Notes: generated by a model not told the origin, from the sequence alone. DNA of 64,000 bases from Candidatus Omnitrophota bacterium (GCA_020632535.1 JACKFJ010000004.1:41514-105513), one strand, 5' to 3'. Positions 20,145-57,641 are shown, numbered from the stretch's first letter. A program made the numbers and translations.

Positions 20145-21116
20145 TTATTTCAACCCTAATTGCTTAAATAAACGCGAAGAAGAACGAACATATTGGTCAC
20201 TACTGATCTCCTTTAGCCACTTTTCCTTAAAAAAGGGATCGATTTCAACACGACTATCACCCCAACCTTGTCCCTTCCACATCGGGAATTTATCCCAATT
20301 GCAGTTAATATAACTCACCGCGCGCACATCATTCTCGCGAATAAACGCAAACAAACTCTTATACCAACGATCCCAACGTCTTTGTGAATCAACAGGCACA
20401 TCCAAATTGGGAGAAGCCTCAGCAATAATCAAGGGCTTATGATGCTTACGAGCTAAATCAGCAAACACAGCTGCGTCTTTTCGATTGTACAATGTAAAAA
20501 AACTAACCCCAAACCAGTCAACATAATCGTCACCCGGATACCAATTTAAAAACGGCTTTAAAGAATTTATAACACCGTAAGAATGCCAAATATATGCGAC
20601 ATTATTTACTCCTTGAGCGCGCCAATGATCAACAAGATATCGATACGCTTTTACATAAACTTTCGATTCATATCCGTTTTGTGGTAAATCAAATTCATAA
20701 CCAATACGTAAAAAAACCGGACGGCGCGTTGATTTTAACCATTCCCCAAATCGCTCAATATTATCATCATATTTCCCATCAATAACATCCTGTAAAGTTC
20801 CAACCATGTATAATCCAATTTGCAAAACCGAATCCGGATATTCCTTTAAAAGATAATTCGCGTCCTGAAAACCTGCACCGTGATCCGCCGGTTCTTCAAC
20901 TCCACTTAAAATTTCGATTGAAGTGTAAAACATCACCCCTGCCGGCACAACATTAAGTTCACGGCTATACGCATTTATCGATTCACGGTCTTGACCAACA
21001 AAAAGGAGAATTTTCTTATCTGGAGGAAGAAACCTTGCAGAACCTTGCCCCGCAAAAACTGGGCAACTGATCAAAATAAAAACAATGATTAACAGAAGCT
21101 TTTTTATCACTTTCAA
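20145..21116 (-). CDS. Secreted glycoside hydrolase, GH26-like (clan GH-A)
   Basis: Signal peptide ([22 protein letters not shown]). Blocks resemble GH26: RPVFLRIGYEFD (acid/base Glu region), WYPGDDYVDWFGVSFF and KPLIIAEASP (nucleophile Glu region). TTG start overlaps the fabZ stop (TTGA). Confidence 0.55.
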   Translation of the reverse strand: MKVIKKLLLIIVFILISCPVFAGQGSARFLPPDKKILLFVGQDRESINAYSRELNVVPAGVMFYTSIEILSGVEEPADHGAGFQDANYLLKEYPDSVLQIGLYMVGTLQDVIDGKYDDNIERFGEWLKSTRRPVFLRIGYEFDLPQNGYESKVYVKAYRYLVDHWRAQGVNNVAYIWHSYGVINSLKPFLNWYPGDDYVDWFGVSFFTLYNRKDAAVFADLARKHHKPLIIAEASPNLDVPVDSQRRWDRWYKSLFAFIRENDVRAVSYINCNWDKFPMWKGQGWGDSRVEIDPFFKEKWLKEISSDQYVRSSSRLFKQLGLK

Positions 21117-28738: not shown

Positions 28739-29002
28739 TTACTTGGAGTTTTTCTTAAAAGCGGAGCTTTTATTACTTTTATCTGACATATAATGCTTGA
28801 CCCAACCTGCGGAGAACTTTGTAATCCAATCATCTGCTGCTTTATCAAAACCGATACTGTGACCAGCTTTTTCACTTTCAATCCATAAGTGTCTTTTAAT
28901 CTCTTCAACGACACGCGGGTCTTTAAGCAATGCCTCTTTACTCACCTTTGCCATACCAACTGCCCCACGATGATTAAATAACGCTGACAGGATTTTCTTC
29001 AT
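28739..29002 (-). CDS. Small hypothetical protein (87 aa) with KRHLWIESEKAGH motif
   Basis: Only sizeable ORF in this interval outside the riboswitch. Contains EEIKRHLWIESEKAGHSIGFDKAADDWI and a basic tail. No firm family assignment. The start is uncertain (ATG 29002 or internal MAKVSKE). Confidence 0.45.
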   Translation of the reverse strand: MKKILSALFNHRGAVGMAKVSKEALLKDPRVVEEIKRHLWIESEKAGHSIGFDKAADDWITKFSAGWVKHYMSDKSNKSSAFKKNSK

Positions 29003-29159: not shown

Positions 29160-29200
29160 AAAAATAAAAGCGCCCATTTCCGGATAACGGAAACAGGCGC
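29160..29200 (-). terminator. Intrinsic terminator on the minus strand, part of a terminator/antiterminator leader
   Basis: Minus strand GCGCCTGTTTCCG-ttat-CGGAAATGGGCGC (13 bp including two G-U pairs) followed by TTTTATTTTT. Confidence 0.6.
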
Positions 29201-29314
29201 ATCACATTTTCCGTTATTGGCAACTGGCTGCCCCTAACACCGGGGCCCTATAGTTTTGTGCCCTACCCTTGCGAGTAGTTTACCCTTTTCAATAATGTCT
29301 TTTAAGACTGTCAA

Positions 29315-29343
29315 AGTATTCCATGCGTTTTCACGATTGTCAA
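29315..29343 (-). promoter_or_regulatory. Candidate promoter for the leader RNA (TTGACA-N17-AATACT)
   Basis: Minus strand: TTGACA (29343..29338), 17-nt spacer, AATACT (29320..29315). The -10 is only moderate. Confidence 0.35.
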
Positions 29344-29422: not shown

Positions 29423-30223
29423 ATGAATTCCCTCGAAAAACTTGAAAACAACTCAATTTACATTATTCGCGAAGCTTACAGCCGCTTTCGCAATATCGCT
29501 CTTTTATGGTCTATCGGAAAAGACTCAACAACTCTTTTATGGCTTTGCCGTAAAGCGTTCTTTGGAAAAATCCCTTTCCCAATTTTACATATCGATACCA
29601 GTTACAAATTCCAAGCGATATATGACTTTCGCAAGAAATATGCCAAAGACTGGAATCTACAACTCATTATAGAAAAGAACGAACGTGCTTTAGCAAATGG
29701 CATGAACAACTCGCTTGGGAAATTCGAATGCTGCGATAGTTTAAAAACACAAACCCTCAAAAGGGCAGTCGAAAAACATCATTTCAAAGCCATCATTCTC
29801 GGCATACGCCGCGACGAACACGGCATTCGCGCCAAAGAAAGATTCTTTTCCACACGCAACAGTGATCATCGCTGGGATTACGGCAATCAAGCACCTGAAC
29901 TTTGGGATCTCTATCAAGCCCACTTAGAAAAAGATCAACACTTACGCGTTCATCCTTTACTTGGCTGGCGTGAAATAGATGTCTGGAATTATATTCAACA
30001 AGAAAAAATTCCCGTCGCTGATCTTTATTTTTCTAAAAATGGCCAGCGCTTTCGTTCCATCGGATGCGAACCGTGCTGCAGCCCAATCCCTTCGAAAGCA
30101 AATTCACTTGCAAAAATTATCGCAGAATTAAAGACAACAAAAATTGCTGAACGCAGTGGCCGCAGTCAAGACAAAGAAGACTCGTACAATATGCAAAAAC
30201 TGCGCAGTCTTGGATACATGTAG
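29423..30223 (+). CDS. cysD: Sulfate adenylyltransferase subunit 2 CysD
   Basis: MNSLEKLENNSIYIIREAYSRF aligns with the E. coli CysD N-terminus (LEAESIHIIREVAAEF). SIGKDS PP-loop present. I prefer ATG 29423 over the track TTG start at 29378. Confidence 0.9.
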   Translation: MNSLEKLENNSIYIIREAYSRFRNIALLWSIGKDSTTLLWLCRKAFFGKIPFPILHIDTSYKFQAIYDFRKKYAKDWNLQLIIEKNERALANGMNNSLGKFECCDSLKTQTLKRAVEKHHFKAIILGIRRDEHGIRAKERFFSTRNSDHRWDYGNQAPELWDLYQAHLEKDQHLRVHPLLGWREIDVWNYIQQEKIPVADLYFSKNGQRFRSIGCEPCCSPIPSKANSLAKIIAELKTTKIAERSGRSQDKEDSYNMQKLRSLGYM

Positions 30224-30225
30224 AG

Positions 30226-31476
30226 ATGACCATTAATACAGAACAACTCAAAATTGCCGTATGCGGTCATATTGATCACGGCAAATCTACACTCATCGGC
30301 CGCCTACTTTTAGATACCAGCTCTCTGCCCGACGAGAAAACAAATGAATTGAAAAAGATTGCAAAAGAATTCGGCGAAGAAACTCAACTGGCATATCTTT
30401 CAGATCAGCTCAAGGAAGAGCGCGAACGCAATATTACAATCGAAACAACACAAATATTTCTTAAAACTCATAAACGACCGTATTGCTTAATCGACACACC
30501 GGGGCATTTGGAATTTATTAAAAACATGCTCACCGGAGCTAGTCAAGCCGACGCAGCACTTGTTCTTGTTGATATTGAGGAAGGTATTGCTGATCAGACG
30601 CGACGCCACGCATATCTTCTCAAATTTCTTGCATTACCAAACATTATTGTCCTCGTTAATAAGATGGATTTGGTTAACTATGCGGAAAAAAAATTTAGAC
30701 AAATCGAGAACGAATTACGCTCTTTGTTTAACGAACTTGATTTAAAACCACTACATATTATTCCCATCAGCGCCAAGCAGGGCGAAAATATCAAAAAAAC
30801 GTCCCGGCGCATGTCTTGGTTTCACGGACCACATGTCATTAACGCTATTGATAACATCCCAAACACATTCGAAGGTACATTAAAGCAATCTTTACGTCTT
30901 CCTGTCCAAGACGTTTATCAGCATGACCACGAAGACATTATCGTCGGAAGAATTGCTTCCGGAGCACTTAATAAAAAGCAAAAAGTTTTTATTTATCCAC
31001 AAGCAACATTTACGACTATTAAAACCATAAAAGTTTTTGGAAAGGGAAAGCAGAGCGCACATGCTGGCGAATGTATTGGCCTGACATTAACCGATAACTT
31101 CCCCATTCGACGTGGCGATATTCTCTGCGCCGATGAATTCACACCGCAAACACAACGAAACTTTCGTAGCAATATTATTTGGCTAAGTTCAACAAAGCTG
31201 CAACAAGGACAAACCTTGCAGATCCAATGCGCGACGCAAACTTTTCACTGCAAAGTCATACAAATTCTAGAAGCAATTGATCCTAAAGATTTAAATATTT
31301 CTAAAGACAATGTTCTTAGCATTACAAAAAACCAAGCAGCACTGATTGAATTCACGATGTTATCGTCTGCCATTGTTGAAAAACACACGGACATTCCGGA
31401 ATTAGGTCGCTATACGATTGAAGATAATGACGGCCTTTTAGGAGCCGGAACTATTCTAGCCGTCAGACAAAACTAA
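30226..31476 (+). CDS. cysN: Sulfate adenylyltransferase subunit 1 CysN (GTPase only, no APS kinase domain)
   Basis: GHIDHGKSTLIGRLL, DTPGH and NKMD GTPase motifs; close to E. coli CysN by eye. At 416 aa it is too short for a fused CysC domain. It starts 2 nt after the cysD stop. Confidence 0.9.
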   Translation: MTINTEQLKIAVCGHIDHGKSTLIGRLLLDTSSLPDEKTNELKKIAKEFGEETQLAYLSDQLKEERERNITIETTQIFLKTHKRPYCLIDTPGHLEFIKNMLTGASQADAALVLVDIEEGIADQTRRHAYLLKFLALPNIIVLVNKMDLVNYAEKKFRQIENELRSLFNELDLKPLHIIPISAKQGENIKKTSRRMSWFHGPHVINAIDNIPNTFEGTLKQSLRLPVQDVYQHDHEDIIVGRIASGALNKKQKVFIYPQATFTTIKTIKVFGKGKQSAHAGECIGLTLTDNFPIRRGDILCADEFTPQTQRNFRSNIIWLSSTKLQQGQTLQIQCATQTFHCKVIQILEAIDPKDLNISKDNVLSITKNQAALIEFTMLSSAIVEKHTDIPELGRYTIEDNDGLLGAGTILAVRQN

Positions 31477-31477
31477 A

Positions 31478-32701
31478 ATGCAATATTTAAGCAAAACACG
31501 ACTTTCGCTTTGCCTTATCATACTTTTGAATTGTTCGCTTTCGGCACAAGCTGCTAAACCTTCGCCGACAGTTGCTGATTCCGAAAAATTCAAGACCATG
31601 ATGTCTCTTCCATACTTGCAAGGCTATTTCAAAGCACCACAGAAAACCAACGTCACTTTATATAATCGCGAACTAGCATATAAGGGCAACTCTTTATACT
31701 CATCGGGTGAATCTGCCATTGCTTACCTGATTGACATGAAGGGTCATGTCCTTCATCAATGGTCGTATGATTTACACAAAATCTGGCCGAACCAATCACT
31801 CAATGAAACTTCACCATTCTGGGAAAATGTTTATCTTTATCCTAACGGCGATTTGCTCGCTATTTATCACAATGGTGGTGTAATTAAAATTGACAAAGAT
31901 TCAAAGTTGCTCTGGTCATACGATTGCAATGCTCATCATGATCTTACCGTTGATAATCAAGGCAGGATTTATACTCTAACCAATGATTGGGTTAAACTTA
32001 AGAAAAATGTCCACATTACCGATAACTCAATCTTAATACTTTCGCCAGAAGGAAAATTCCTTAAGAAAATTTCTTTTTTACAAATGATGCATAAATCCAA
32101 GAATACTCACATTGAGCCGTTGTTAAAAAGGGTCGTCGGCATGGCTCTCAACGGTATGCATGATGTGTATCACACCAACACACTCAAAGTTTTTAACGGC
32201 CAATCTTCATCACGACAACCCGCAATTTTTAAAAAGGGCAACATTCTGATTTCGATGCTGACTCTTAGCACGATTGCAATCATCGATCCTGATTTGGAAG
32301 ACATTGTCTGGGTAGGTGGGCCACGATTATGGTCCGAGGGACAGCATAATGTGCAATTACTTGAAAATGGCCATATGCTCACATTTGATAATCACTATCA
32401 AGGAACGAAACAATCGCGCATTTTAGAATTCAATCCATTCGAAAGAATATCCATTTGGGAATATACTGATAAGGATTTTTATAGCGATACTCACGGATCA
32501 CAGGAAAGACTGCCGAATGGTAATACATTAATTATTGAAGCAAATAAAGGCCGCGCGTTTGAAATCACAAGAGACAAAAAAATAGTTTGGGAATTTCTTA
32601 ATCCTAATAAAACCGGCAAAGATAATGATTTGATCGCAACAATTTTTGTTATGTATCGCTTCGACTCTAGCTATACGTCCTCTTGGCTAAAATCACAGTA
32701 A
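31478..32701 (+). CDS. Secreted arylsulfotransferase (ASST)-like beta-propeller protein
   Basis: Signal peptide (LIILLNCSLSAQA/AKP). His-containing blocks AHHDLTVDNQGRIY, DVYHTNTLKVF and EGQHNVQLLENGHMLTFDNH resemble the ASST family as I recall it. ATG lies 1 nt after the cysN stop. Confidence 0.6.
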   Translation: MQYLSKTRLSLCLIILLNCSLSAQAAKPSPTVADSEKFKTMMSLPYLQGYFKAPQKTNVTLYNRELAYKGNSLYSSGESAIAYLIDMKGHVLHQWSYDLHKIWPNQSLNETSPFWENVYLYPNGDLLAIYHNGGVIKIDKDSKLLWSYDCNAHHDLTVDNQGRIYTLTNDWVKLKKNVHITDNSILILSPEGKFLKKISFLQMMHKSKNTHIEPLLKRVVGMALNGMHDVYHTNTLKVFNGQSSSRQPAIFKKGNILISMLTLSTIAIIDPDLEDIVWVGGPRLWSEGQHNVQLLENGHMLTFDNHYQGTKQSRILEFNPFERISIWEYTDKDFYSDTHGSQERLPNGNTLIIEANKGRAFEITRDKKIVWEFLNPNKTGKDNDLIATIFVMYRFDSSYTSSWLKSQ

Positions 32702-32802: not shown

Positions 32803-34857
32803 TTAAAAGAGCGGCTGACCATCAAAATCGAAAGATTTTATTTCCTCATCCGAGAAACCGACGACATGTAAAATAGTCGGACTTAAATCCATAATTGAGG
32901 GGGTTTTTTTCACAATAGGCCGATTTGAAAATAGAACACCGTCGACAAGAAGAGGATCAAAAAGATGCGTGCCAGACCATTTTCGCAAATTATCTTCAAT
33001 TAATTCAGCCGGAACCGCGCCTAAAGCCGTTTGCCACGAAGCACCATAACCAATATTAAATCCCACAACTAAATCTGGCCCCTGCTTTACAGTATACGGG
33101 CCACTATAGACATTTTCAGAAAAATAAACCTTATTCACGACGTGCTCATTAAATTTAGCGTCAACCCACGATTTTAAACCTTTAGCAATTTGATCTTTAA
33201 TCTGAGCTTTCTTAACACTGTCAACAATACCTTGACTCTCACGACCTTTTTCATTGATATAAATCGAACCAAAACCAATCGCATATGCTTTTGTTTTTGT
33301 CCAATCAATATCTTTTAAAAGTGGTTCTCCCATCAAAGCGCCAGCATCTTTTAATTCTAACAAACCTTGTTCACGCAACCAACTGTTTACATGCACAGTC
33401 CGTCGATAAGTATCAAAACCGTGATCAGATAAAACCAGCAATGTGTCCTCCGGCCCCAATTGCACCATCACTTTCCCAAGAATCACATCCATCTTTTCGT
33501 ACCAGTCATAAATAATATTTTTATATTCCGCCGGCGCGTTAGCTTCATAAAGCGGATGCTGAGAATCGATATATCGCCAGAACATATGTTGAATAATATC
33601 CGGATCCTCAAAGTAAAAAGAAAAAACACCCTTTTTAAATTTCTTTAATTCTACAGCCAGCATTTTTTCCCGCTCCTGCAAGACATCATCGACCTGTTGA
33701 AGAAAAACTTTTTCATCGAGACGCTTTTCATTAAGCGACCACGTATCAAAGGGCATGCCTTGCGTATGAAAAAGACCAATTTCCTCACTCAACGTTTTAG
33801 CAAATTCCGCCGGATGAGTGATTGGAAAAAACGGATCGCGAGGATCAATATTAAAAGGACTGACATATAACTTTAAATGTGGCTCAGTGGCAACAACAAA
33901 AAATTTAAAGATAGCTCTGGATTTACGAAAAAGCCCTAAATCAAAAACAATTTCCTGCCAATCACTCCACTGCCCTTCCCGCAGAACAACTTTCTTTTTT
34001 TGATATTCAATTTCAACTGTCCCCGTTGTTGGAAATGTCATTTTAAAAGGAACTTGTACATTCTTGACTGAACCATTAATTTCTTTAACGCGCGGCCCCC
34101 AAAAATCGCTAATCATCAAATGCGACTTTTTAACAAAAAAGACTTTCCCGCCAGTCGTATCCAAATTTTCATCCGGCAATGACGTATAAAACGAAAATGT
34201 CCCTTCGGTTCCAAGGACATCCGGCACGCCCATACCCGAAAGCATTTTTCCGTAAACTTGATCCGGAGGGAATGTCACCGGACATCCCAGAATCACTGTC
34301 GGAATCTTTTTCTCGGATGTGTATTGCCAAAAACGCTTGGCTTTTATGACAGGTTTAGCCACACCCCCTTCGGTATTAGACAATGACAAGGACAAAGAAT
34401 AATCCTTAGCGTCCCGCGTAATAAAATCAAAGATGCCATTCTTGCCAGAATTCTTTCCAGTTGAAAATGCGCTCCACGCAACAGGAGACTCAGGGGGATT
34501 TGTCGTCGCTAAGCGGCTGTATCCGCCCTGCGCCTTAAGACGAGCAAAGTTCTTCAATTTCCCGTGAGCCATCATGGGCTCCATAATCTTGGGACTTAAA
34601 GCGTCAAATCCGATGACGATCACTTTTTTATCAAATGTCGATGACGATTTTTGCATAACAACGACTCCAAAAATGACAACAATGACAATACCGATAAATA
34701 TAATTGTAGCCCATCCCTTATTGCGTTTGAGAAAATTAAATATTTTCTTAAAAAATACTACACACGTGCTCAATGCCCCCAGCAAAAATGCTAACAGCGC
34801 ACCACTTGCACTTGCAACGGTAAACCCCGTACCCGGATCAATATAACCAAAAATCAT
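32803..34857 (-). CDS. Membrane-anchored alkaline-phosphatase-superfamily enzyme (type I phosphodiesterase / nucleotide pyrophosphatase-like)
   Basis: 684 aa. N-terminal GYIDPGTGF followed by two TM helices. Then VIVIGFDALSP and TTNPPESPVAWSAFSTG (metal-ligand / nucleophile region of AlkP/NPP enzymes) and LVLSDHGF. Confidence 0.7.
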   Translation of the reverse strand: MIFGYIDPGTGFTVASASGALLAFLLGALSTCVVFFKKIFNFLKRNKGWATIIFIGIVIVVIFGVVVMQKSSSTFDKKVIVIGFDALSPKIMEPMMAHGKLKNFARLKAQGGYSRLATTNPPESPVAWSAFSTGKNSGKNGIFDFITRDAKDYSLSLSLSNTEGGVAKPVIKAKRFWQYTSEKKIPTVILGCPVTFPPDQVYGKMLSGMGVPDVLGTEGTFSFYTSLPDENLDTTGGKVFFVKKSHLMISDFWGPRVKEINGSVKNVQVPFKMTFPTTGTVEIEYQKKKVVLREGQWSDWQEIVFDLGLFRKSRAIFKFFVVATEPHLKLYVSPFNIDPRDPFFPITHPAEFAKTLSEEIGLFHTQGMPFDTWSLNEKRLDEKVFLQQVDDVLQEREKMLAVELKKFKKGVFSFYFEDPDIIQHMFWRYIDSQHPLYEANAPAEYKNIIYDWYEKMDVILGKVMVQLGPEDTLLVLSDHGFDTYRRTVHVNSWLREQGLLELKDAGALMGEPLLKDIDWTKTKAYAIGFGSIYINEKGRESQGIVDSVKKAQIKDQIAKGLKSWVDAKFNEHVVNKVYFSENVYSGPYTVKQGPDLVVGFNIGYGASWQTALGAVPAELIEDNLRKWSGTHLFDPLLVDGVLFSNRPIVKKTPSIMDLSPTILHVVGFSDEEIKSFDFDGQPLF

Positions 34858-35256: not shown

Positions 35257-35751
35257 ATGTTGTATACTTTCGATACCATGAAAAGTATATTTCTATCATC
35301 CTTCTCTAATGGTCATACACCTCGAAAAGGCTTTACTCTCCTCGAAGTCATAATCGTTGTCGTAATTCTAGGAGTTCTTGCCAGCCTTGCGCTGCCCAAA
35401 TATAACAACATGGTTATTCAGGGCGAATGTCGTAGCGTCGAAACGAATATGATTGTCATCTATCAAGCTGTAAAACTTTTTAGAATGAGAAATCCAACAA
35501 ACTCATACCCCGGATCAGCAAACTTAGCCGCTATCAACGCTACCCTTGGCCTATCAATTGCGGATGATCCACTACATAATTATTTCATACCTGCAGGAAG
35601 CCCTTGGGATATGTCGGTCATTAGAGTTGATGGAAAATATCATTGCTACCTACAATTTCCCATTGTCGGCGTTTATGACCAACCCAATGTCTATTGCCAA
35701 TATTATTCTGGTTTCGGCAGCGGTGACGTATGTCCATCGATTGTCGGATAG
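35257..35751 (+). CDS. Type IV pilin / pseudopilin-like protein (prepilin-type N-terminal cleavage/methylation domain)
   Basis: RKG/FTLLEVIIVVVILGVLASLALPKY is a class III signal peptide (G-F cleavage site, Glu+5). Four Cys in the C-terminal half. The start is ATG 35257 or ATG 35278. Confidence 0.65.
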   Translation: MLYTFDTMKSIFLSSFSNGHTPRKGFTLLEVIIVVVILGVLASLALPKYNNMVIQGECRSVETNMIVIYQAVKLFRMRNPTNSYPGSANLAAINATLGLSIADDPLHNYFIPAGSPWDMSVIRVDGKYHCYLQFPIVGVYDQPNVYCQYYSGFGSGDVCPSIVG

Positions 35752-35842: not shown

Positions 35843-36541
35843 CTACAGACTTTCTGCTGGAGGGTCTTGATTCAAAATTTCGCGATGATGGCGAATCATC
35901 CTCGCCTGAATCATATAAATGACCTCTTCCGCGATATACGTGGCACGATCGCAGATACGCTCAAGATCACGCGCGACCAGAATAAGCGGCACGGCGCGTG
36001 GAGCAGTTTTTCCATCTTTTACCATAAAATCCTGAACAAGACATTCCATAACAGAATTACGAAACTTATTGGACTTTTCATCAAACAGAATAACCTTCTC
36101 AGCTAAAGGCTCATCGTGACTTACAAAAGCATCAATGGCATTCTTCACCATCCACTTTGCATTGTCGGCTAAAGGCGGCAAATCATTGATTGGAGTCAAA
36201 AGCGCGCCGCCCTTTTCGGAAAGCTCGAGAACTCTTTGACAAATATTGACTGTCAAATCCGCGATGAGTTCCAACTCAGAATTAATATGCATGGCTGTAA
36301 CAATAAAGCGTAAATCTTTGGCCATTGGCTGAAACAGTGCTAACAATTCAATTGCGTGTTCTTCATTATCGATTTCCAAATCATCAACCTGTTCATCACG
36401 CTCAATGACTTCTTCGGCTAATTCCTTATTCACACTCTTTAAAGCTTCAAAAGAATCATGAATGGCCCGCTCGGTCAACGAAGCCATTTTCAAAAGATTC
36501 CCCTTTAACTTCTGCAATTCGTCATCCAAATGTCTTTCCAT
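35843..36541 (-). CDS. phoU: Phosphate signalling complex protein PhoU
   Basis: Two PhoU repeats, and the last gene after pstB. Start at ATG 36541 (MERHLDDEL) with AGGAGAGG Shine-Dalgarno; the track start at 36565 is a TTG inside pstB. Confidence 0.9.
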   Translation of the reverse strand: MERHLDDELQKLKGNLLKMASLTERAIHDSFEALKSVNKELAEEVIERDEQVDDLEIDNEEHAIELLALFQPMAKDLRFIVTAMHINSELELIADLTVNICQRVLELSEKGGALLTPINDLPPLADNAKWMVKNAIDAFVSHDEPLAEKVILFDEKSNKFRNSVMECLVQDFMVKDGKTAPRAVPLILVARDLERICDRATYIAEEVIYMIQARMIRHHREILNQDPPAESL

Positions 36542-36557
36542 GCTGACCTCTCCTATG

Positions 36558-37316
36558 TTAACCAAAACGACCGGTAATATACTCTTCAGTAATTTTCTTC
36601 GTCGGACGGGTAAAAATTTCGCTGGTCTTCCCTCGCTCGATGAGTTCCCCTTGCATCAAAAAGACTGTAATATCAGATATCCGTGCTGCCTGTTGCATAT
36701 TGTGAGTAACAATAACAATTGTATACTTTTTCTTAAGCTCAACGATAAGCTCTTCAAGTTTTGCGGTCGCGATCGGATCCAAAGCGGAAGCTGGCTCATC
36801 CATCAATACAACTTCCGGTTCAATGGCTAAGGCGCGCGCCACACATAACCGCTGTTGCTGCCCACCGGACAAACGCAAAGCATTTTCATGCAAACGATCC
36901 TTAACTTCATTCCACAATCCTGCGTTGATCAGACCTTGCTCAATCTTTTCGGCAATAAATTCCTTGTTTTTTACACCATTGATCCGTAAACCATACGCAA
37001 CATTTTCAAAAATCGATTTAGGAAAAGGATTAGGACGCTGAAAAACCATACCAACCTTGCGTCGCAAATCCACCACGTCGACATCAGGAGTATATATATT
37101 CTGGCCATCAATATGAATCGTTCCTTCAATGCGGGTGTTTGGAATCAAATCATTCATACGATTAAAACAGCGCAACAGCGTAGACTTACCACATCCCGAC
37201 GGGCCAATAATACTCGTCACTTCCTTAGGCGCAATACCCAGAGTGATATTTTTAAGGCATTTGCTCTGGCCATAATAAAAATTAAAACCATCAATAGCAA
37301 TAAAATTTTGACTCAT
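36558..37316 (-). CDS. pstB: Phosphate ABC transporter ATP-binding protein PstB
   Basis: Walker [10 protein letters not shown], signature LSGGQQQR, Walker B VVLMDEP. Confidence 0.95.
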
Positions 37317-37318
37317 AT

Positions 37319-38191
37319 TTACTCCTGACGCGATTTTCGCAAGTGATAACGCAAAACAATCGCGCTCAAATTCATTAAAAAAACCACCAAAATCAAAACC
37401 AAAGCCGTACCGTAAGCAATCGGCCTGACGATTTCAATCGCATGATGCTGCGTTGACATAATATAAAGATGATATGGCATAGCCATAAATTGGTCAAACA
37501 GTGATTTTGGAAGTCCAGGCAACGCAAAAGCCGCGCCGGTAAAAAGAATCGGCGCTGTCTCACCCGCCGCACGCGCCAAACCCAAAATAGTCCCCGTCAA
37601 CATCCCGGGAATCGCATACGGAAGAACATTTGTCCGTATCGATTGCCATTGCGTCGCCCCTAATGCAAGCGAGCCTTCACGGTACGACATCGGCACACCT
37701 TTTAATGCTTCCTCTGACGCGGTAATCGTCCACGGTAAAGTCATTAACCCCAACGTTAAACCTGCCGATAAAATACATGTTCCAAAATGCATCGCTTCCA
37801 CAAAAAGTGCCACACCAAAAAGCCCATAAACAATCGACGGAACACCAGATAAATTACGAATCGAAATCCGAATCAAACGTGTGAGCTTACCAGTACCAGC
37901 ATATTCATTTAAATAAATGGCACAGCCCATACCAAGCGGTACAGAAAAAATTGCGGTAATAATAGTAATCAAAACCGTACCAACAATCGTGGGCAAAATT
38001 CCGCCTTCGGCCATCCCGTTACGCGGCGATTGAGTGAGAAATTCCCATGTAATGACACCCCACGATTTAGAAATAATATCGAAGAAAATTACACTCAGAA
38101 TCCCAAGAATTATGAGCATACACAACCGCAAGAAGCCAAAACCGACAACTTGCTCTAAAAATTTTGTTTGTGCTTTTTTATAAGATTTCAT
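37319..38191 (-). CDS. pstA: Phosphate ABC transporter permease PstA
   Basis: PstA-like polytopic permease. I prefer ATG 38191 (MKSYKKAQ), 1 nt after the pstC stop, over the track start at 38227. Confidence 0.85.
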
Positions 38192-38192
38192 T

Positions 38193-39071
38193 TTAACGTA
38201 ACTTGCTTTCGTAACGGTGTAGAACAATATCAGCTATCATATTAATAACAAAAGTAATCAAAAAAAGAACAAGTCCAACGGCAAACAAAGCATGATAATG
38301 TGTTGTAAAGTAGGGGACTTCCCCAAGTTCAATTGCAATTGTCGATGTCATAGGCCGCACTGAATTTAAAAATCCCGATGGGAAAGCTGGCGCATTACCG
38401 GTAGCCATGAGAACGGTCATCGTTTCACCAATCGCGCGCCCCATACCCAACATACAAGCCGCAATAATTCCCGAACTAGCCGCTTGCAACTTCACTTTAA
38501 CTAATGTTTGCCAATGACTTGCTCCCAAAGCCAATGATGCCTCTTGAAAAGATTTAGGGACATTGGCTAATGCATCTTCACAAAGACTCACAATGGTTGG
38601 CAAGGCCATTACCGCAAGAAGCACAGAACCATTAAGGGCATTAAGCCCGCTATATGTTCCGGTCATCTTCGCGATAAACGGCCCAACCATCACAATCCCC
38701 AGAAATCCGATAACCACCGACGGGATACCAGCCAAGATTTCAACAACAGGTTTAGCGATTTCACGGACTTTGGGACTTGCCACATCCGAAAGATACGCCG
38801 CAGTACCGATGCCGATCGGCACCGCAAGAACTAATGAACCAAGCGTAACCATGAAAGTACTGACAATCATCGAGACAATACCATAGCCCGGATTATAGTC
38901 TGAACTTGGATTCCAGTTCTTTCCGGTTAAGAATTCTTTCCACGGAACTTCCTTAAACGTCGGCATTGCATTTAAGACCAACAACAAGAAAATACCCGCC
39001 AAAATCATAATGACTAAAACACCATTGATCAAAAATGCTGTACGTATAATTTTTTCTTTTAATCGAAACAT
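38193..39071 (-). CDS. pstC: Phosphate ABC transporter permease PstC
   Basis: PstC-like polytopic permease sitting between pstS and pstA. Confidence 0.9.
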   Translation of the reverse strand: MFRLKEKIIRTAFLINGVLVIMILAGIFLLLVLNAMPTFKEVPWKEFLTGKNWNPSSDYNPGYGIVSMIVSTFMVTLGSLVLAVPIGIGTAAYLSDVASPKVREIAKPVVEILAGIPSVVIGFLGIVMVGPFIAKMTGTYSGLNALNGSVLLAVMALPTIVSLCEDALANVPKSFQEASLALGASHWQTLVKVKLQAASSGIIAACMLGMGRAIGETMTVLMATGNAPAFPSGFLNSVRPMTSTIAIELGEVPYFTTHYHALFAVGLVLFLITFVINMIADIVLHRYESKLR

Positions 39072-39083
39072 TCAAATCCCAAA

Positions 39084-39953
39084 TTATAGACCAGCGTTTT
39101 TATTAAAATCCTTATACTCTTGTGAAATCTCAAAAAATCCCTCTTCTTCAACAATCTTTTGACCCGCGGGACTCAATTCAAACGCCACAAAATCTTTGGC
39201 CGCGCCTGTCAATGAACCTTCAACATATTGATTTAATGGACGAGTAATTGGATAATTACCATTTCTAACATTCACCGTGTCCAAAGGATCATATGCTTTA
39301 GCTCCAGCCTTAGAAGCAATTTTAAGAACTTTAATACCTTGCGCATTCTTTGCGTAACCCACACCAACATAACCAACAGCTGATGGATCAGACTTGATTC
39401 CTTCAACAATCTGCGCATTCCCATTCATCTGGCGCATCGATGGCGAATAATCACCTTTCATAATATCTTCAATCATAAAATCATATGTTCCGGAATTGGA
39501 TTGACGACCATAAAGCGAAATCGGCATGTTTTCGCCACCAACTTCTTTCCAATTCTTAATCTCGCCCTTATAGATTTTCCCGACTTGATCGACTGTTAGA
39601 ACTGCTATCGGATTATTGGGATTAACAATAATGCTTAAACTATCCAAAGCAACGACGACGCGTACTGGTGAAGCACCGCGACTATTTGCTAATTCAATTT
39701 CTTTTCCTCTCATTAAGCGGGAAGCATTGGCAAGATCACATTTTTTATTGATCAATGCCGCAATCCCTGTCCCCGAACCACCCCCAGTGACCGAAACCAT
39801 TTTGTCTGGATTAACTTTCATATACTCTTCTGCAATTCTTTGAACCAAATTAATTAAAGTATCAGAACCTTTAACTTGTAAAACATCCGCGTAACTAACA
39901 CTACTTAAAAGCAACCCTGAGATTACAGCAAATACTATACTAAAATTTCTCAT
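39084..39953 (-). CDS. pstS: Phosphate-binding protein PstS
   Basis: Signal peptide plus VKGSDTL, GGGSGTG and SGTYD motifs of the PstS/PBP family. Confidence 0.9.
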   Translation of the reverse strand: MRNFSIVFAVISGLLLSSVSYADVLQVKGSDTLINLVQRIAEEYMKVNPDKMVSVTGGGSGTGIAALINKKCDLANASRLMRGKEIELANSRGASPVRVVVALDSLSIIVNPNNPIAVLTVDQVGKIYKGEIKNWKEVGGENMPISLYGRQSNSGTYDFMIEDIMKGDYSPSMRQMNGNAQIVEGIKSDPSAVGYVGVGYAKNAQGIKVLKIASKAGAKAYDPLDTVNVRNGNYPITRPLNQYVEGSLTGAAKDFVAFELSPAGQKIVEEEGFFEISQEYKDFNKNAGL

Positions 39954-39970
39954 TTCTCTCTCCTAATTAA

Positions 39971-41227
39971 TTAAAATTTAACGACAATATCACCCTGAAC
40001 AACATGTTCTGTATTATGTGCCTCTTTAATTCTATTGGACATATAATAATCGACACCTAGCGTAACATTTTTCATAAGACCTAAAGTCAAAATGGCTTCA
40101 TGACTTTTGACATCCGTACGTCCGCCAAAGCGATCAGAATCTGGGAAAGTATCAGGAAAAGCATCCTTTCCTAAGTAAACATATTGATACTTCATTTGCC
40201 ATTGTTTGTATGCACTCACTTTTTTGTTACCAAAAACGAACCCAGCGGCCCACCCTTTGTTTTGCTCACTTGGGTCGGGGTTTATGATGTAATCACCGAA
40301 AACTGCAATCCGTTCATCAATACCGTACGGCAATCCACCAAGAATACTATTGGAGCCAAACTCTGCGGATAATGCGAAAGAATCATAATCATATTTTAAC
40401 CCCGCGTCAGCAACATTCCCGACTTGGGTATTGGTGTTAAGTTCATTATCAAGATCATATCCTTTGACGCCATTGAATATGTAATATGTTCCAGCAACTT
40501 TGGCATCAAGTTTTTCAACACTATACTTTGTACCACCCTGAAAATAGATCATATTGGGATCCGGATTTTTGCTAGCACCGTTTTCATCGAACAACCACCA
40601 TCCAGCATTAACAAATCCTTCCATATTATCCGTAATCGAATGATCAAAGTGTGCCGCAAAACCATAAGGATTGATATCAGTATCCCAAAGCATATCCGTT
40701 GTTTGCCACAAGTAATTTGAAAAAAGGAATTTACCACCGACCAGAGTCGCCCATGGTGCCGCAGAATACTCAATCGAAGCATAATCAAGACGAACATCTC
40801 CACGTTCAAATGTGTTCTCCCATGTCGTATTCGTAGATCTTGGATCCGTTGCCCCTGACGAAAGTCCCGCGCCAACTTTAACATCCTTGAGAGGATTAAA
40901 ATCTAAACCCAACCGAAAACGCGTCCTCGCCCGACTACGAGAAGCCGCATCAGCATCTTTCTTCTCATATTGATAGCGAAGACGGATATCACCTTTGAGT
41001 TTCATACTTTGTACCCAAGAAGGGAGAGCATAAGAATTCTTTTCAACAATATCTTTGCTAACCTGTGTTTTAGTTTCTTGCTCAATAATTTTAGCTTCAT
41101 TGGACGTTAAAACACCTTTATCAACAAGTTTTTCAAGTAAAACACTGACCTCTCCCGCGTTTGCTGACATTAAAATGCCAAATGTCAAACACAAAGCTGT
41201 AAACATCGAAACAAAAATCTTTTTCAT
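39971..41227 (-). CDS. Outer-membrane porin, probably phosphate-selective (OprO/P-like context)
   Basis: Signal peptide (MKKIFVSMFTALCLTFGILMSANA), alternating beta-strand-like sequence, and a C-terminal ...IVVKF aromatic terminus. Sits between the Pho box and pstS. Confidence 0.6.
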   Translation of the reverse strand: MKKIFVSMFTALCLTFGILMSANAGEVSVLLEKLVDKGVLTSNEAKIIEQETKTQVSKDIVEKNSYALPSWVQSMKLKGDIRLRYQYEKKDADAASRSRARTRFRLGLDFNPLKDVKVGAGLSSGATDPRSTNTTWENTFERGDVRLDYASIEYSAAPWATLVGGKFLFSNYLWQTTDMLWDTDINPYGFAAHFDHSITDNMEGFVNAGWWLFDENGASKNPDPNMIYFQGGTKYSVEKLDAKVAGTYYIFNGVKGYDLDNELNTNTQVGNVADAGLKYDYDSFALSAEFGSNSILGGLPYGIDERIAVFGDYIINPDPSEQNKGWAAGFVFGNKKVSAYKQWQMKYQYVYLGKDAFPDTFPDSDRFGGRTDVKSHEAILTLGLMKNVTLGVDYYMSNRIKEAHNTEHVVQGDIVVKF

Positions 41228-41376: not shown

Positions 41377-41385
41377 CTTATAAAA

Positions 41386-43839: not shown

Positions 43840-43845
43840 AAAATA

Positions 43846-55952: not shown

Positions 55953-57641
55953 ATGCCATCCCATGAATTTGAACCAAAACTTATTACCGTTCTTAAAGAA
56001 GGTTATTCATTTAAGACTTTCTATAAAGACTGTATCGCTGGAGTTATTGTCGGAATTGTCGCTCTCCCTCTTTCCATTGCCTTTGCTATTGCTTCTGGCG
56101 TCAAACCAGAACAAGGTCTTTATACCGCCGTAATCGCCGGCTTTCTTATTTCGCTATTAAGCGGCAGCCGTGTCCAAATCGGTGGACCAACTGGCGCTTT
56201 TATCGTCATCATTTTTAGCATCGTACAAAAATTTGGTTATGAAGGCCTTGCACTCGCTACCATCATGGCTGGATTTTTACTCATTCTTATGGGAATTGCC
56301 CGCCTTGGCGATGTTATCAAATATATTCCATATCCTGTAACAGTTGGATTCACCAGTGGAATCGCAATTATTATCTTCACTTCACAGGTTAAAGAATTCC
56401 TCGGTCTTAATATACAAACCCCCACACATTTTGCCGAAAAATGGATTGTATACTTTCAAAATTTACCGTTACTAGACACTCCCAGTCTTGCGCTGGGAAT
56501 ATTGACTATTTTTATTCTCATCGTTGCGCCAAAAATCACACGTAAATTTCCTGCCCCTCTTATTGCGATCTTTGCGACAACAGGCATTGTCCATTTCTTT
56601 AACCTATCCGTTGCGACAATCGGCAGTCGTTTTGGTAGTGTTCCAAATCACTTTCAAATGCCCACCTTACCTCCTTTGAGCATTGATCTTATAACACAAC
56701 TTTCTCCCGCCGCTTTAGCCATTGCATTACTTGCCGGCATTGAGTCACTCTTATCGGCAGTAGTGGCAGACGGCATGACGGGACGAAAACATCGCTCAAA
56801 TATGGAATTGATCGGACAAGGCGTCGCAAATATTATCAGCCCGCTTTTCTCTGGTTTACCAGCGACAGGTGCGATCGCGCGCACCGCCACAAACATCAAA
56901 AGCGGCGGTCAAACTCCAATCGCAGGAATAATCCATGCCTTAACGATTCTACTTCTTTTTATCTATCTGGGGAAATGGGCGGAATTAATTCCTATGGCCA
57001 CACTCGCAGGGATTTTAATTATAATTGCTTACAATATGAGCGAATGGCGACTTTTTGTCAAACTTCTGCGAAGTCCTAAAAGTGACATTATGGTTTTGTT
57101 GATCACCTTTTTTTTGACAATCTTCATCGATTTAATTGTCGCCATCGAAGTCGGCGTAGTTATGGCGTCATTTCTCTTTATGAAGCGCATGGTAGATGTT
57201 ACCGAAATTAAATCAATCACACAATTTATTAACGAAGATGTTCGGACTGATTTATCAGACAATCCTGCCGATGACCCACACACAATCGCCGCGCGAAAAA
57301 TTCCCAAAGGGGTAGAAATTTTTGAAATCAATGGACCTTTCTTCTTTGGTGCAACCGATAAGTTTCGCGACACAATGCGTGGAATTCAAAAACCGCCTCA
57401 AATTCTTATTTTGCGAATGCGCAATGTTCCGACTATTGATGCGACTGGTTTACGAGCCCTTGAGGATACACTTGAAAAAGCCAAAAAAGATGGCATCACA
57501 GTTCTCCTCTCGGGACCAAATGCACGTCTTCTTCGAAAGTTTAACAATAGTGGAATCACGCAACGCATCGGAGAAAATAATATTTTATCGGAAATTGACG
57601 ATGCACTAAATCGCGCACGTGAAATTCTTGGTAAAGAATAG
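55953..57641 (+). CDS. SulP-family anion (sulfate) permease with C-terminal STAS domain
   Basis: 562 aa; SulP-like TM core (GIVALPLSIAFAIASG, QIGGPTGAF) and a STAS-like tail (ILILRMRNVPTIDATGLRALE). Confidence 0.9.
   Translation: MPSHEFEPKLITVLKEGYSFKTFYKDCIAGVIVGIVALPLSIAFAIASGVKPEQGLYTAVIAGFLISLLSGSRVQIGGPTGAFIVIIFSIVQKFGYEGLALATIMAGFLLILMGIARLGDVIKYIPYPVTVGFTSGIAIIIFTSQVKEFLGLNIQTPTHFAEKWIVYFQNLPLLDTPSLALGILTIFILIVAPKITRKFPAPLIAIFATTGIVHFFNLSVATIGSRFGSVPNHFQMPTLPPLSIDLITQLSPAALAIALLAGIESLLSAVVADGMTGRKHRSNMELIGQGVANIISPLFSGLPATGAIARTATNIKSGGQTPIAGIIHALTILLLFIYLGKWAELIPMATLAGILIIIAYNMSEWRLFVKLLRSPKSDIMVLLITFFLTIFIDLIVAIEVGVVMASFLFMKRMVDVTEIKSITQFINEDVRTDLSDNPADDPHTIAARKIPKGVEIFEINGPFFFGATDKFRDTMRGIQKPPQILILRMRNVPTIDATGLRALEDTLEKAKKDGITVLLSGPNARLLRKFNNSGITQRIGENNILSEIDDALNRAREILGKE

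What the first reader, a model, noticed from the sequence alone, without database searches (positions are those of the whole stretch)
29423..32701. cysD-cysN translationally coupled to a secreted arylsulfotransferase-like protein; no APS kinase or reductase nearby
Seen: the cysD stop and cysN ATG are 2 nt apart, and the cysN stop and the next ATG are 1 nt apart. The third gene has a clear signal peptide and ASST-like His blocks. CysN is 416 aa, so it has no fused CysC domain, and no cysC or cysH is in the window. Established: NodP/NodQ are CysD/CysN paralogues dedicated to sulfating a secreted signal with NodH, but NodQ carries APS kinase. Characterised ASST enzymes are periplasmic and PAPS-independent. 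Inference: this may be a dedicated sulfate-activation/sulfo-transfer module with an unusual donor (APS?) or a topological twist. A SulP permease lies at 55953.
Basis: partly seen in the sequence, partly recalled or inferred. Interest (0 to 1): 0.55.

Follow-up and report, generated by a model that had tools for sequence, protein, structure and literature searches.

The report
Sulfate activation genes with secreted sulfotransferase
In an uncultured Omnitrophota bacterium the two genes that activate sulfate are fused into one operon with a secreted aryl-sulfotransferase-like enzyme and always travel with a membrane-anchored phosphodiesterase-like enzyme, without the usual kinase or reductase, which points to an undescribed way of making or harvesting sulfate esters outside the cell.

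Summary
cysD (29423-30223), cysN (30226-31476, 416 aa, no APS-kinase domain) and a 407-aa gene (31478-32701) are separated by 2 nt and 1 nt. The third protein passes PF14269. Its model is a beta-propeller whose best PDB matches are Cpz4 and E. coli ASST. It keeps ASST-like invariant His/Asn/Thr residues and has a signal peptide that relatives also carry.

The linkage is not chance. cysDN and ASST-like genes stay adjacent in at least three gene orders in divergent Omnitrophota-type loci.

Homologues accompany this cysDN clade in 18 of 20 well-flanked metagenome loci and in Spirochaetota and Pseudomonadota genomes. ASST appears in only 3 of those 20.

No APS kinase or CysH-type reductase occurs in the window or in 1.9 Mb of related loci.

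Best reading (confidence 0.38): a dedicated, kinase-less sulfation module acting on an extracytoplasmic substrate. An organosulfate/organophosphate scavenging operon is a serious rival (0.30). The sulfuryl donor and how the membrane is crossed remain unresolved.

Verdict: a new variant of a known kind, of moderately high interest.

The parts
29423..30223 (+). cysD, the small PP-loop subunit of sulfate adenylyltransferase (266 aa).
   Evidence: PF01507 at 144.9 bits. NCBIfam NF003587 CysD at 345.7 bits (cut-off 195). It carries the SIGKDS PP-loop and the C-terminal RSLGYM. It is 65-81% identical to the CysD of the related loci.
30226..31476 (+). cysN, the GTPase subunit (416 aa), with no APS-kinase domain.
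   Evidence: It has GTP_EFTU, D2 and eEF1A_C domains only. TIGR02034 CysN scores 309.9 bits, just under its cut-off of 336.1, and EF-1alpha models score slightly higher. The start lies 2 nt after the cysD stop.
31478..32701 (+). Secreted ASST-like six-bladed beta-propeller (407 aa), a putative sulfo-histidine sulfotransferase.
   Evidence: PF14269 at 71.8 bits. The AF2 model has pLDDT 89. The best PDB matches are Cpz4 (9kf4/9kf6) and E. coli ASST. Invariant residues are H93, H153, H154, H232, N234, H290, N347 and N349; K253 and T350 are nearly invariant. The start lies 1 nt after the cysN stop.
31478..31552 (+). Signal peptide of the ASST-like protein (residues 1-25, predicted cleavage AQA/AK).
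   Evidence: The sequence has an n-region with K6 and R8, the h-region LSLCLIILLNCSL, and the c-region SAQA. Equivalent hydrophobic N-termini occur in all context homologues.
32803..34857 (-). Membrane-anchored NPP/alkaline-phosphatase-superfamily enzyme (684 aa), convergent with the ASST gene. It is the most constant partner of this cysDN clade.
   Evidence: PF01663 at 95 bits. The AF2 model has pLDDT 86, and its best PDB matches are SPAP, ENPP1/3/5, phosphonoacetate hydrolase and Xac NPP. Invariant D85, S124, D420, H424, D478, H479 and H631, which match the NPP two-metal site by motif. Residues 1-70 form an N-terminal YIDPGTGF motif plus a two-helix hairpin. It is linked to cysDN.
29269..29296 (+). 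Promoter-like site upstream of cysD (weak).
   Evidence: The consensus scan matches 9 of 12 positions. The number of such sites in the region is no higher than in shuffles.
55953..57641 (+). SulP-family anion permease with a STAS domain. It may supply sulfate, but no linkage is shown.
   Evidence: PF00916 at 302 bits plus PF01740. It lies 23 kb away and was not found linked in related loci.

Best explanation
The locus is a dedicated sulfate-ester-forming (sulfation) module that lacks APS kinase.

Shown:
- CysD/CysN has the motifs of a working ATP sulfurylase and is cytoplasmic.
- It is co-translated with an exported ASST-type beta-propeller that keeps residues matching the ASST sulfuryl-binding and sulfo-histidine site.
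- The operon is co-inherited with a membrane-anchored NPP-type two-metal enzyme that has a Ser nucleophile. Its catalytic domain is predicted to face the periplasm.

Inferred:
- Sulfate activated as APS is passed in the cytoplasm to a small or lipid-linked carrier. The enzyme for this step is not identified in this window. In many related loci a cytoplasmic 420-460-aa PF01663 paralogue fused to the cysDN operon is the candidate.
- The carrier crosses the inner membrane.
- The ASST-like enzyme transfers the sulfuryl group by a ping-pong sulfo-His mechanism to an envelope or extracellular acceptor, probably a glycoconjugate.
- The NPP-like enzyme processes the carrier or the acceptor.

The logic is that of the caprazamycin two-step sulfation (PAPS, then aryl sulfate, then the ASST-type Cpz4), moved to the cell envelope and run without a recognisable APS kinase.
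For: 1. Tight coupling: 2-nt and 1-nt gaps.
2. cysDN and ASST adjacency survives in three gene orders at 27-70% ASST identity:
 - cysD-cysN-ASST (window, L001-L004, L007, L008, L080);
 - ASST-cysD-cysN, with 4-nt overlaps in L119 and L127 (also L132, L139);
 - ASST-ASST-PDE convergent with cysN-cysD (L056).
3. ASST fold and residues: Foldseek top hits are Cpz4 and EcASST. Invariant HHD, H-x-N and QH, with nearly invariant NGNT, match by order the His252, His356/Asn358, His436 and Thr501 listed in PMC13426309.
4. All context ASSTs have export signals.
5. No APS kinase and no CysH-type reductase was found in the window plus 161 loci, 1.93 Mb in all (queries validated). No PAPS-type sulfotransferase, APS-kinase or sulfite-reductase family appears among the 25 neighbour families shown, all with at least two members.
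6. Neighbours are enriched in envelope-glycan genes: GT2, GT4, NDP-sugar epimerases and dehydratases, and MBOAT. L136 has cysD-cysN-AP-like-epimerase-GT2-sulfatase-like in one same-strand cluster.
7. Precedent: dedicated cysDN paralogues sit next to sulfotransferases (NodPQ/NodH and Bacteroides BT0411-0416, from my own knowledge), and an ASST-type enzyme has a biosynthetic role (Cpz4; PMC13426309).
Against: - APS is cytoplasmic, while ASST and the window-type NPP domain are predicted to be outside. No carrier-forming enzyme, carrier synthase or exporter is identified in the window.
- Two-metal Ser/Thr enzymes of the alkaline-phosphatase superfamily are phosphoryl-transfer enzymes, not known sulfotransferases.
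- Some related loci carry uptake-type genes: an SsuA-family ABC transporter inside the operon in L094, and TauE in 16 loci.
- A sulfatase-family protein occupies the ASST position in L163. This fits ester harvesting as well as ester synthesis.
- Phycisphaerae relatives have cysD-TauE-cysN alone, so the clade may simply be these lineages' general ATP sulfurylase.
- The rest of the genome could not be inventoried.
Confidence: 0.38

Rival explanations
1. Nutrient-scavenging operon. The exported ASST-like enzyme acts as an arylsulfatase with water as acceptor. The AP-superfamily esterases release sulfate, and phosphate, from environmental or prey organosulfates and organophosphates. The sulfate is imported and activated by CysDN for ordinary assimilation, with APS reductase encoded elsewhere.
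For: - It has no topological problem. It accounts for AP-like partners in every compartment: cytoplasmic, membrane-bound, lipoprotein and Tat-exported.
- TauE permeases lie inside or beside the operon in 16 loci. An SsuA-family ABC transporter lies between cysD and cysN in L094.
- PF00884 proteins share the clusters, and one sits at the ASST position in L163.
- ASTs behave as arylsulfatases when no acceptor is present (PMC13426309).
- The window's NPP-like gene borders a phosphate island: phoU-pstBACS-porin-phoRB, then ppk and ppx. pstSCAB lies directly upstream of AP-like-cysD-cysN in L131, L140, L142 and L151.
- PALP and Hexapep genes, possibly cysK and cysE, lie 5 kb from cysD in L166.
Against: - No cysH, sulfite reductase or cysC was found in 1.93 Mb of related loci, although these often cluster with assimilatory cysDN.
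- The hosts are mostly anaerobes from sulfidic or anoxic habitats, where assimilating sulfate is costly and often unnecessary (inference).
- To my knowledge there is no precedent for translational coupling of cysDN to secreted hydrolases.
- The PF00884 neighbours lack the C/S-x-P-x-R formylglycine motif. They have T-x-P-S-H/V instead. The PF01663 enzymes have a two-metal phosphoesterase site, so none is a canonical sulfatase.
- Cytoplasmic NPP and HIT genes fused to the operon are not explained.
Confidence: 0.3
2. APS-turnover module. CysDN is paired with enzymes that cleave AMP-X bonds (NPP-type PF01663 or HIT). These consume APS directly, as an APS hydrolase, an APS:phosphate adenylyltransferase, or a new APS-dependent transferase of the AP superfamily. 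ASST is a lineage-specific add-on.
For: - Cytoplasmic 417-464-aa PF01663 proteins with no hydrophobic N-terminus lie immediately upstream of cysD or downstream of cysN in at least 15 loci.
- HIT-domain genes lie between or next to cysD and cysN in L108, L113, L120 and L162.
- Both families use covalent nucleotidyl-enzyme intermediates on AMP-X substrates (established enzymology).
- An enzyme that consumes APS is thermodynamically needed when APS kinase is absent.
Against: - The window itself has only the hairpin-anchored 684-aa form, whose domain is predicted to be outside. Lipoprotein and Tat versions are clearly exported.
- Simple APS hydrolysis is a futile cycle.
- This reading does not explain ASST or the PF00884 lipoproteins.
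Confidence: 0.17
3. The gene products share no function. The adjacency reflects shared regulation or neutral synteny within one lineage.
For: L001-L004, L007 and L080 are broadly syntenic with the window, with the rib operon upstream and the pst operon downstream. Those loci alone would not prove functional linkage.
Against: The linkage persists where the flanks differ (L008, L160, L163) and after rearrangement (L056, L119, L127, L132, L139). It spans several phyla and holds at 40-55% protein identity. Gaps of 1-2 nt and 4-nt overlaps point to co-translation.
Confidence: 0.08

Closest known systems
E. coli CFT073 arylsulfate sulfotransferase (ASST/EcAST, PDB 3ELQ/3ETT; PF05935) and gut-bacterial ASTs.
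   Same: Six-bladed beta-propeller and periplasmic export. The conserved His/Asn/Thr set matches, by order, His252, His356/Asn358, His436 and Thr501.
   Different: Only about 13% identity. The window protein hits PF14269, not PF05935. It lacks the N-terminal beta-sandwich domain (407 aa against about 570). The Arg374 position is probably Lys. It is encoded with cysDN and an NPP-like gene rather than with dsbL/dsbI or dsbA.
Cpz4, the ASST-type sulfotransferase of caprazamycin biosynthesis (PDB 9KF4/9KF6).
   Same: It is the best structural match (E 5.6e-15) and the only sequence-profile match in the PDB. It is an ASST-type enzyme in a dedicated biosynthetic role, acting downstream of activated sulfate through a sulfated carrier. 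It sulfates a sugar hydroxyl (PMC13426309).
   Different: 16% identity. The Cpz pathway uses PAPS, a PAPS-dependent sulfotransferase and a type III PKS carrier (my own knowledge). None of these is in the window. No cysDN linkage or NPP partner is known for it.
NodP/NodQ-NodH, RaxPQ-RaxST and the Bacteroides BT0411-0416 sulfonation cluster: dedicated cysDN paralogues beside sulfotransferases (own knowledge).
   Same: CysD/CysN-type ATP sulfurylase genes are clustered with the enzyme that uses the activated sulfate on a secreted or surface product.
   Different: All of those include APS kinase, fused or adjacent, and cytoplasmic PAPS-dependent sulfotransferases. Here there is no APS kinase in 1.93 Mb of related loci, and the transferase-like enzyme is secreted and of the PAPS-independent type.
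Nucleotide pyrophosphatase/phosphodiesterases (Xac NPP, ENPP1/3/5), SPAP/PafA alkaline phosphatases and phosphonoacetate hydrolase (PF01663).
   Same: Same fold and a complete two-metal site with a nucleophile nine residues before the conserved T-G. It is an ecto-enzyme.
   Different: About 10-12% identity. The nucleophile is Ser rather than Thr. It has a roughly 130-residue beta-rich insertion (about residues 203-335) and an invariant N-terminal YIDPGTGF motif with a helical hairpin. Its obligate genomic association with cysDN has not been described for NPPs.

Membership tests
Arylsulfate sulfotransferase (ASST; PF14269/PF05935) | Profile-HMM match above the curated threshold. | tested here: met
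   PF14269 scores 71.8 bits against a cut-off of 27. PF05935 does not hit the window protein at E <= 0.01, though it is recorded for most relatives.
Arylsulfate sulfotransferase (ASST; PF14269/PF05935) | Six-bladed beta-propeller catalytic domain. | tested here: met
   The AF2 model has pLDDT 89.3 and is all-beta from residue 58. Foldseek ranks Cpz4 (E 5.6e-15, TM 0.57-0.60) and EcASST (E 2e-11) first.
Arylsulfate sulfotransferase (ASST; PF14269/PF05935) | Catalytic His (EcAST His436) plus sulfuryl-binding His252, His356, Asn358, Arg374 and Thr501. | tested here: inconclusive
   H153/H154, H232, N234 and H290 are invariant, and K253 and T350 nearly invariant, across 30 sequences. They occur in the same order and with proportionate spacing as the EcAST residues listed in PMC13426309. 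H290 aligns with the Cpz4 'WQHD' His. The mapping rests on motifs, not on structural superposition. Arg374 appears to be replaced by Lys.
Arylsulfate sulfotransferase (ASST; PF14269/PF05935) | Export to the periplasm. | tested here: met
   There is a Sec-type signal peptide with an AQA/A cleavage site. Hydrophobic N-termini are present in all context homologues.
Arylsulfate sulfotransferase (ASST; PF14269/PF05935) | PAPS-independent sulfuryl transfer from aryl sulfates through a sulfo-enzyme intermediate. | not testable with these tools
   This needs an enzyme assay.
CysDN heterodimeric ATP sulfurylase | CysD PP-loop subunit above the family threshold. | tested here: met
   NF003587 scores 345.7 bits against a cut-off of 195, and the SIGKDS motif is present. 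It falls below the cut-offs of the equivalog models NF009214 and TIGR02039.
CysDN heterodimeric ATP sulfurylase | CysN GTPase subunit above the family threshold. | tested here: inconclusive
   TIGR02034 scores 309.9 bits against a cut-off of 336.1, and EF-1alpha PRK12317 scores 340. The G1 (GHIDHGKST), G3 (DTPGH) and G4 (NKMD) motifs are present. Coupling to cysD supports the assignment.
PAPS-dependent dedicated sulfation clusters (NodPQH type) | APS kinase (CysC), fused to CysN or adjacent. | tested here: not met
   CysN is 416 aa with no PF01583 domain. tblastn with a validated CysC query found nothing in the window or in 161 loci.
PAPS-dependent dedicated sulfation clusters (NodPQH type) | Cytoplasmic PAPS-dependent sulfotransferase in the cluster. 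| tested here: not met
   No sulfotransferase-domain hit appears in the window ORFs that were scanned, nor among the 25 neighbour families shown, all with at least two members.
Cpz4-type two-step sulfation | Carrier-forming enzymes (type III PKS and a PAPS-dependent sulfotransferase) encoded alongside the ASST-type enzyme. | tested here: not met
   None was found in the scanned part of the window.
NPP/alkaline-phosphatase superfamily (PF01663) | HMM match, fold, and a two-metal site with a nucleophile. | tested here: met
   PF01663 scores 95 bits against a cut-off of 23. Foldseek top hits are SPAP, ENPP1 and PhnA. D85, S124, D420, H424, D478, H479 and H631 are invariant in 35 sequences. The residue roles are assigned by motif.
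Formylglycine sulfatases (PF00884) | C/S-x-P-x-R formylglycine motif in the sulfatase-family neighbours found in related loci. | tested here: not met
   L161, L164, L094 and L065 carry T-x-P-S-H/V or T-I-G-S-L in its place. The L163 protein showed no such motif in a regex search.

The most novel reading that the evidence does not exclude
A previously unknown sulfation route that is independent of APS kinase and spans the cell envelope. APS made by a distinct CysDN clade would be used directly by alkaline-phosphatase-superfamily enzymes with Ser/Thr nucleophiles, found in cytoplasmic, membrane-bound and exported paralogues. An ASST-type sulfo-histidine enzyme would then relay the sulfuryl group to an extracytoplasmic glycoconjugate. 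This would be a bacterial counterpart of Golgi sulfation that bypasses PAPS. It might be switched on together with the Pho regulon, to replace phosphate-based anionic polymers with sulfated ones.
Probability: 0.2. Interest if true: 0.88.

Novelty: new variant of a known kind. Interest (0 to 1): 0.6.

Why it matters
Every well-understood biological sulfation route runs through PAPS or through pre-formed aryl sulfates. The physiological donors and acceptors of bacterial ASST-type enzymes are essentially unknown (PMC13426309).

A conserved operon that ties sulfate activation directly to a secreted ASST-type enzyme and to NPP-type enzymes, with no APS kinase, offers a concrete genetic handle on three questions:
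- what ASST-like propellers do in nature;
- whether APS can feed sulfation without PAPS;
- how sulfate esters are made or harvested outside the cytoplasm in uncultured anaerobic phyla (Omnitrophota, Phycisphaerae, Spirochaetota).

The window's genome carries NCBI locus tags adjacent to those of an isolate named HK-STAS. I read that name, from my own knowledge, as an activated-sludge study. Sulfated glycosaminoglycan-like polymers of unknown origin have been reported in granular sludge and anammox granules (cited in PMC7356697).

If the scavenging reading is right instead, the module would define formylglycine-independent organosulfate and organophosphate harvesting in anaerobes.

Tried and rejected
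- Chance adjacency or neutral synteny: rejected, because the linkage survives rearrangement and spread across phyla.
- Wrong start or artefactual signal peptide: rejected. The ORF cannot extend upstream, and homologues keep hydrophobic N-termini. A few database entries start at the internal Met41/42, which is probably gene-caller truncation.
- Reading the nearby Pst genes as a sulfate transporter: rejected. NCBIfam PstB scores 399.9 bits against a cut-off of 343, the PstS family scores 236 against 206.6, and PhoU is present.
- Canonical sulfatases as partners: rejected, because the PF00884 neighbours lack the formylglycine motif.
- The neighbouring epimerases as UDP-sulfoquinovose synthase (SqdB): rejected on sequence motifs, by inspection only.
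- Searches that led nowhere:
 - literature searches for Omnitrophota sulfur assimilation, and the supplement of Seymour et al. 2023;
 - a search for the Cpz4 structure paper;
 - walking beyond the window ends with the look-up of encoding contigs, which found no exact product on record.
- The c-di-GMP riboswitch upstream is on the opposite strand and controls a different small gene, so it does not regulate cysD.


Full report
**Observation.** The window is from a Candidatus Omnitrophota MAG; the three proteins have 100%-identical entries on a 175-kb NCBI contig. cysD runs 29423-30223 (266 aa from the ATG; an upstream TTG at 29378 is also possible). cysN runs 30226-31476 and the third gene 31478-32701. 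The junctions read ...ATG TAG AG ATG... and ...AAC TAA A ATG.... The 2-nt and 1-nt spacings are therefore real.

CysD passes the NCBIfam CysD subfamily model (345.7 bits against a cut-off of 195). CysN is a 416-aa EF-Tu-like GTPase with intact G1, G3 and G4 motifs and no APS-kinase domain. It is divergent: TIGR02034 scores 309.9 against a cut-off of 336.1, and EF-1alpha models score slightly higher.

No APS kinase, PAPS/APS reductase, sulfite reductase or PAPS-type sulfotransferase was found in the window. This rests on Pfam scans of most ORFs of 150 aa or more from about 20 kb to the 3' end and on tblastn of the whole window with CysC and CysH queries. I checked those queries as bona fide family members: PF01583 at 237 bits and PF01507 at 199 bits. 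SulP at 55953-57641 is confirmed.

**The third gene.** It matches PF14269 (71.8 bits, cut-off 27). A 30-sequence alignment gives an AlphaFold model with pLDDT 89 that is an all-beta propeller from residue 58. Foldseek against the PDB ranks the caprazamycin ASST-type sulfotransferase Cpz4 first (9kf4/9kf6, E 5.6e-15, TM 0.57-0.60) and E. coli ASST next (E 2e-11), ahead of generic NHL and WD propellers. Cpz4 is also the only PDB sequence found by the family profile.

The review PMC13426309 gives the EcAST active site as His252, His356, Asn358, Arg374, His436 (sulfo-His) and Thr501. The window family has, in the same order and with proportionate spacing:
- invariant H153-H154-D;
- invariant H232-x-N234;
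- nearly invariant K253;
- invariant Q-H290;
- N-G-N-T350, with N347 and N349 invariant and T350 nearly invariant.

I take this as probable conservation of the catalytic apparatus, with Arg replaced by Lys. It rests on motif mapping, not on superposition.

The protein lacks EcAST's N-terminal beta-sandwich. The N-terminus (MQYLSKTRLSLCLIILLNCSLSAQA/AK) is a standard Sec signal. The ORF cannot start further upstream, and all context homologues carry signal peptides or signal anchors.

**Is the trio a unit?** I scanned one genome per species with the ASST alignment. This gave 79 loci, which I searched for CysD, CysN and the downstream convergent gene.
- All Omnitrophota-type loci with enough flank carry cysDN next to the ASST gene.
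- This includes L008, where ASST is only 40% identical and the flanks are unrelated.
- It also includes L056, where the order is ASST-ASST-PDE convergent with cysN-cysD.
- About 70 loci from Acidobacteriota, Eisenbacteria and other phyla have no cysDN within 10 kb.

A reciprocal metagenome scan with a CysD alignment gave 80 loci. It revealed a third order, ASST-cysD-cysN, with 4-nt overlaps in L119 and L127; L132 and L139 have the same order. In L119 all four genes lie on one strand. Adjacency kept through three gene orders, at 27-70% ASST identity, is good evidence of a functional link.

**The overlooked partner.** The convergent gene at 32803-34857 encodes a 684-aa PF01663 protein. It has more than 120 database cluster representatives at 53-77% full-length identity.
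- Its model (pLDDT 86) matches SPAP alkaline phosphatase, ENPP1/3/5, phosphonoacetate hydrolase and Xac NPP.
- D85, S124, D420, H424, D478, H479 and H631 are invariant. By motif these form the complete NPP two-metal site, with Ser at the nucleophile position.
- The N-terminus has an invariant YIDPGTGF motif and a two-helix hairpin.
- Mean net charges are -0.95 for the N-tail, +3.4 for the loop and +1.9 after TM2, over 20 sequences. This predicts N-out/C-out, so the catalytic domain should be periplasmic, with moderate confidence.

This family tracks cysDN much more closely than ASST does.
- Of 20 metagenome loci with at least 2.2 kb on both sides of cysDN, 18 contain a PF01663 homologue, 6 of them the 684-aa orthologue. 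Only 3 contain an ASST.
- The convergent cysD-cysN / 684-aa arrangement recurs in a complete Spirochaetota chromosome (L160) and in other Omnitrophota (L161).
- It also recurs in a Pseudomonadota MAG (L163), where an 812-aa PF00884 protein occupies the position that ASST holds in the window.

The AP-like partners come in several architectures:
- soluble cytoplasmic proteins of 417-464 aa, fused to the operon directly upstream of cysD or downstream of cysN in at least 15 loci;
- the hairpin form found in the window;
- a form with a signal peptide, then YIGPGAGF, then a single TM helix, whose domain is predicted to face the cytoplasm;
- lipoprotein and Tat-exported forms.

L148 and L164 combine several of these around one cysDN.

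**Other recurrent neighbours.**
- TauE/SafE permeases lie between or beside cysD and cysN in 16 loci (PF01925).
- DUF2061 and HIT-domain genes lie between the subunits.
- An SsuA-family ABC transporter lies inside the operon in L094.
- PF00884 proteins are present. In those inspected (L161, L164, L094, L065) a T-x-P-S-type motif replaces the formylglycine motif C/S-x-P-x-R. Some of these are Tat lipoproteins.
- The pstSCAB operon is adjacent in two arrangements.
- Envelope-glycan genes occur in several loci: GT2, GT4, epimerases, GDP-mannose dehydratase and MBOAT.

None of the 161 related loci or the window (1.93 Mb in all) contains an APS kinase or a CysH-type reductase.

**Interpretation.** The data establish a conserved module: a distinct CysDN clade, enzymes of the alkaline-phosphatase superfamily and, in Omnitrophota-type lineages, a secreted ASST-type propeller. 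It contains no kinase or reductase. Which way the chemistry runs is not established.

I favour a dedicated sulfation role (0.38) for four reasons:
- the only precedents for cysDN clustered with sulfotransferase-family genes are biosynthetic;
- the nearest structural relative, Cpz4, is a biosynthetic ASST working downstream of activated sulfate through a sulfated carrier;
- reductive genes are absent from every locus;
- glycan genes are enriched among the neighbours.

The weak point is topology. APS is cytoplasmic while ASST and the window's NPP-like domain are outside, and no carrier-forming enzyme is visible in the window.

The scavenging reading (0.30) has no topological problem and explains the transporters, the sulfatase-family genes and the Pho-island neighbourhood. 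It leaves APS without a downstream enzyme, and it relies on enzymes that are not canonical sulfatases.

A third reading (0.17) takes the NPP and HIT partners as direct consumers of APS. Mere synteny is disfavoured (0.08).

**Novelty and significance.** Dedicated cysDN-sulfotransferase clusters and ASST enzymes are both known. New here, to my knowledge and after the literature searches, are three features:
- their combination;
- the absence of APS kinase;
- the near-obligate alkaline-phosphatase-superfamily partner.

I class the finding as a new variant of a known kind. I put the chance that it is a genuinely new PAPS-independent sulfation route at about 20%.

Noticed in passing
window 29170-29343 (- strand): A complete c-di-GMP-I riboswitch lies upstream of cysD on the opposite strand. 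The aptamer is at 29216-29294 (RF01051, 61.1 bits against a gathering score of 35). A 13-bp terminator stem with a T-run follows at 29200-29170. A TTGACA-17-AATACT promoter-like site with an extended TG lies at 29343-29315. It sits upstream of an 87-aa ORF (28739-29002, -) with only a weak DUF4032 hit. It is divergent from cysD and does not control it.
   Followed up: partly
window 35843-50714: A phosphate-homeostasis island starts about 1 kb beyond the NPP-like gene. It contains phoU, pstB, pstA, pstC, pstS, a Porin_5 outer-membrane porin, a PhoR-like kinase and PhoB-like regulator, then a dienelactone hydrolase, RimK, a ROK kinase, ppk1 and ppx. Pst operons also lie next to cysDN and AP-like genes in unrelated arrangements (L131, L140, L142, L151, L161). 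This hints at a link between phosphate limitation and this module.
   Followed up: partly
L161 14049-16295; L164 1337-7492; L094 7560-9500; L065 13141-14880: Sulfatase-family (PF00884) proteins in the cysDN and ASST clusters have Thr in place of the formylglycine Cys/Ser, and His or Val in place of Arg (TFPSH, TLPSV, TAPST, TLPSH). Several are Tat-signal lipoproteins or are fused to TPR repeats. They are unlikely to be canonical sulfatases, and their function is unknown.
   Followed up: partly
L108, L113, L120 (11110-11556), L162 (8209-8709); L084, L120, L165 (10827-11132): HIT-domain proteins and small DUF2061 membrane proteins are inserted between or next to cysD and cysN in several relatives. 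HIT enzymes are known to act on AMP-X compounds, including APS, so these may be APS-consuming partners.
   Followed up: no
L162 10849-15572 (Sedimentisphaera salicampi NHPQ01000015.1): In this cultured planctomycete the cysD-TauE-cysN operon is interrupted twice. One insertion is an MvaI/BcnI-type restriction endonuclease with a methyltransferase. The other is an AAA-ATPase gene pair. The sulfate-activation operon seems to be an insertion hot spot.
   Followed up: no
window 32803-34857, residues 1-12; L051 10952-13126, L011 1852-4008, L148 5907-8039: An invariant YI(D/G)PG(T/A)GF motif lies immediately before the first membrane helix of the long PF01663 proteins. In some homologues a cleavable-looking signal peptide precedes it, so the motif seems to be required at the outer face of the membrane. 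It matches no motif that I know.
   Followed up: partly
window 59502-63746 (-) and 20145-21116 (-): A 1414-aa ORF and a 323-aa ORF have no Pfam match at E <= 1e-5.
   Followed up: no
window 35257-35751 (+): A lone prepilin-type (GspG/PilA-like) gene with an N-terminal methylation motif lies between the NPP-like gene and phoU. The arrangement is conserved in L001-L003 and L080.
   Followed up: no
window 1-64000: GC skew is strongly and uniformly negative (about -0.2), and nearly all genes are on the - strand. The cysD-cysN-ASST unit is one of the few + strand units, and the skew is weakest there (-0.115 at 30-32 kb).
   Followed up: no
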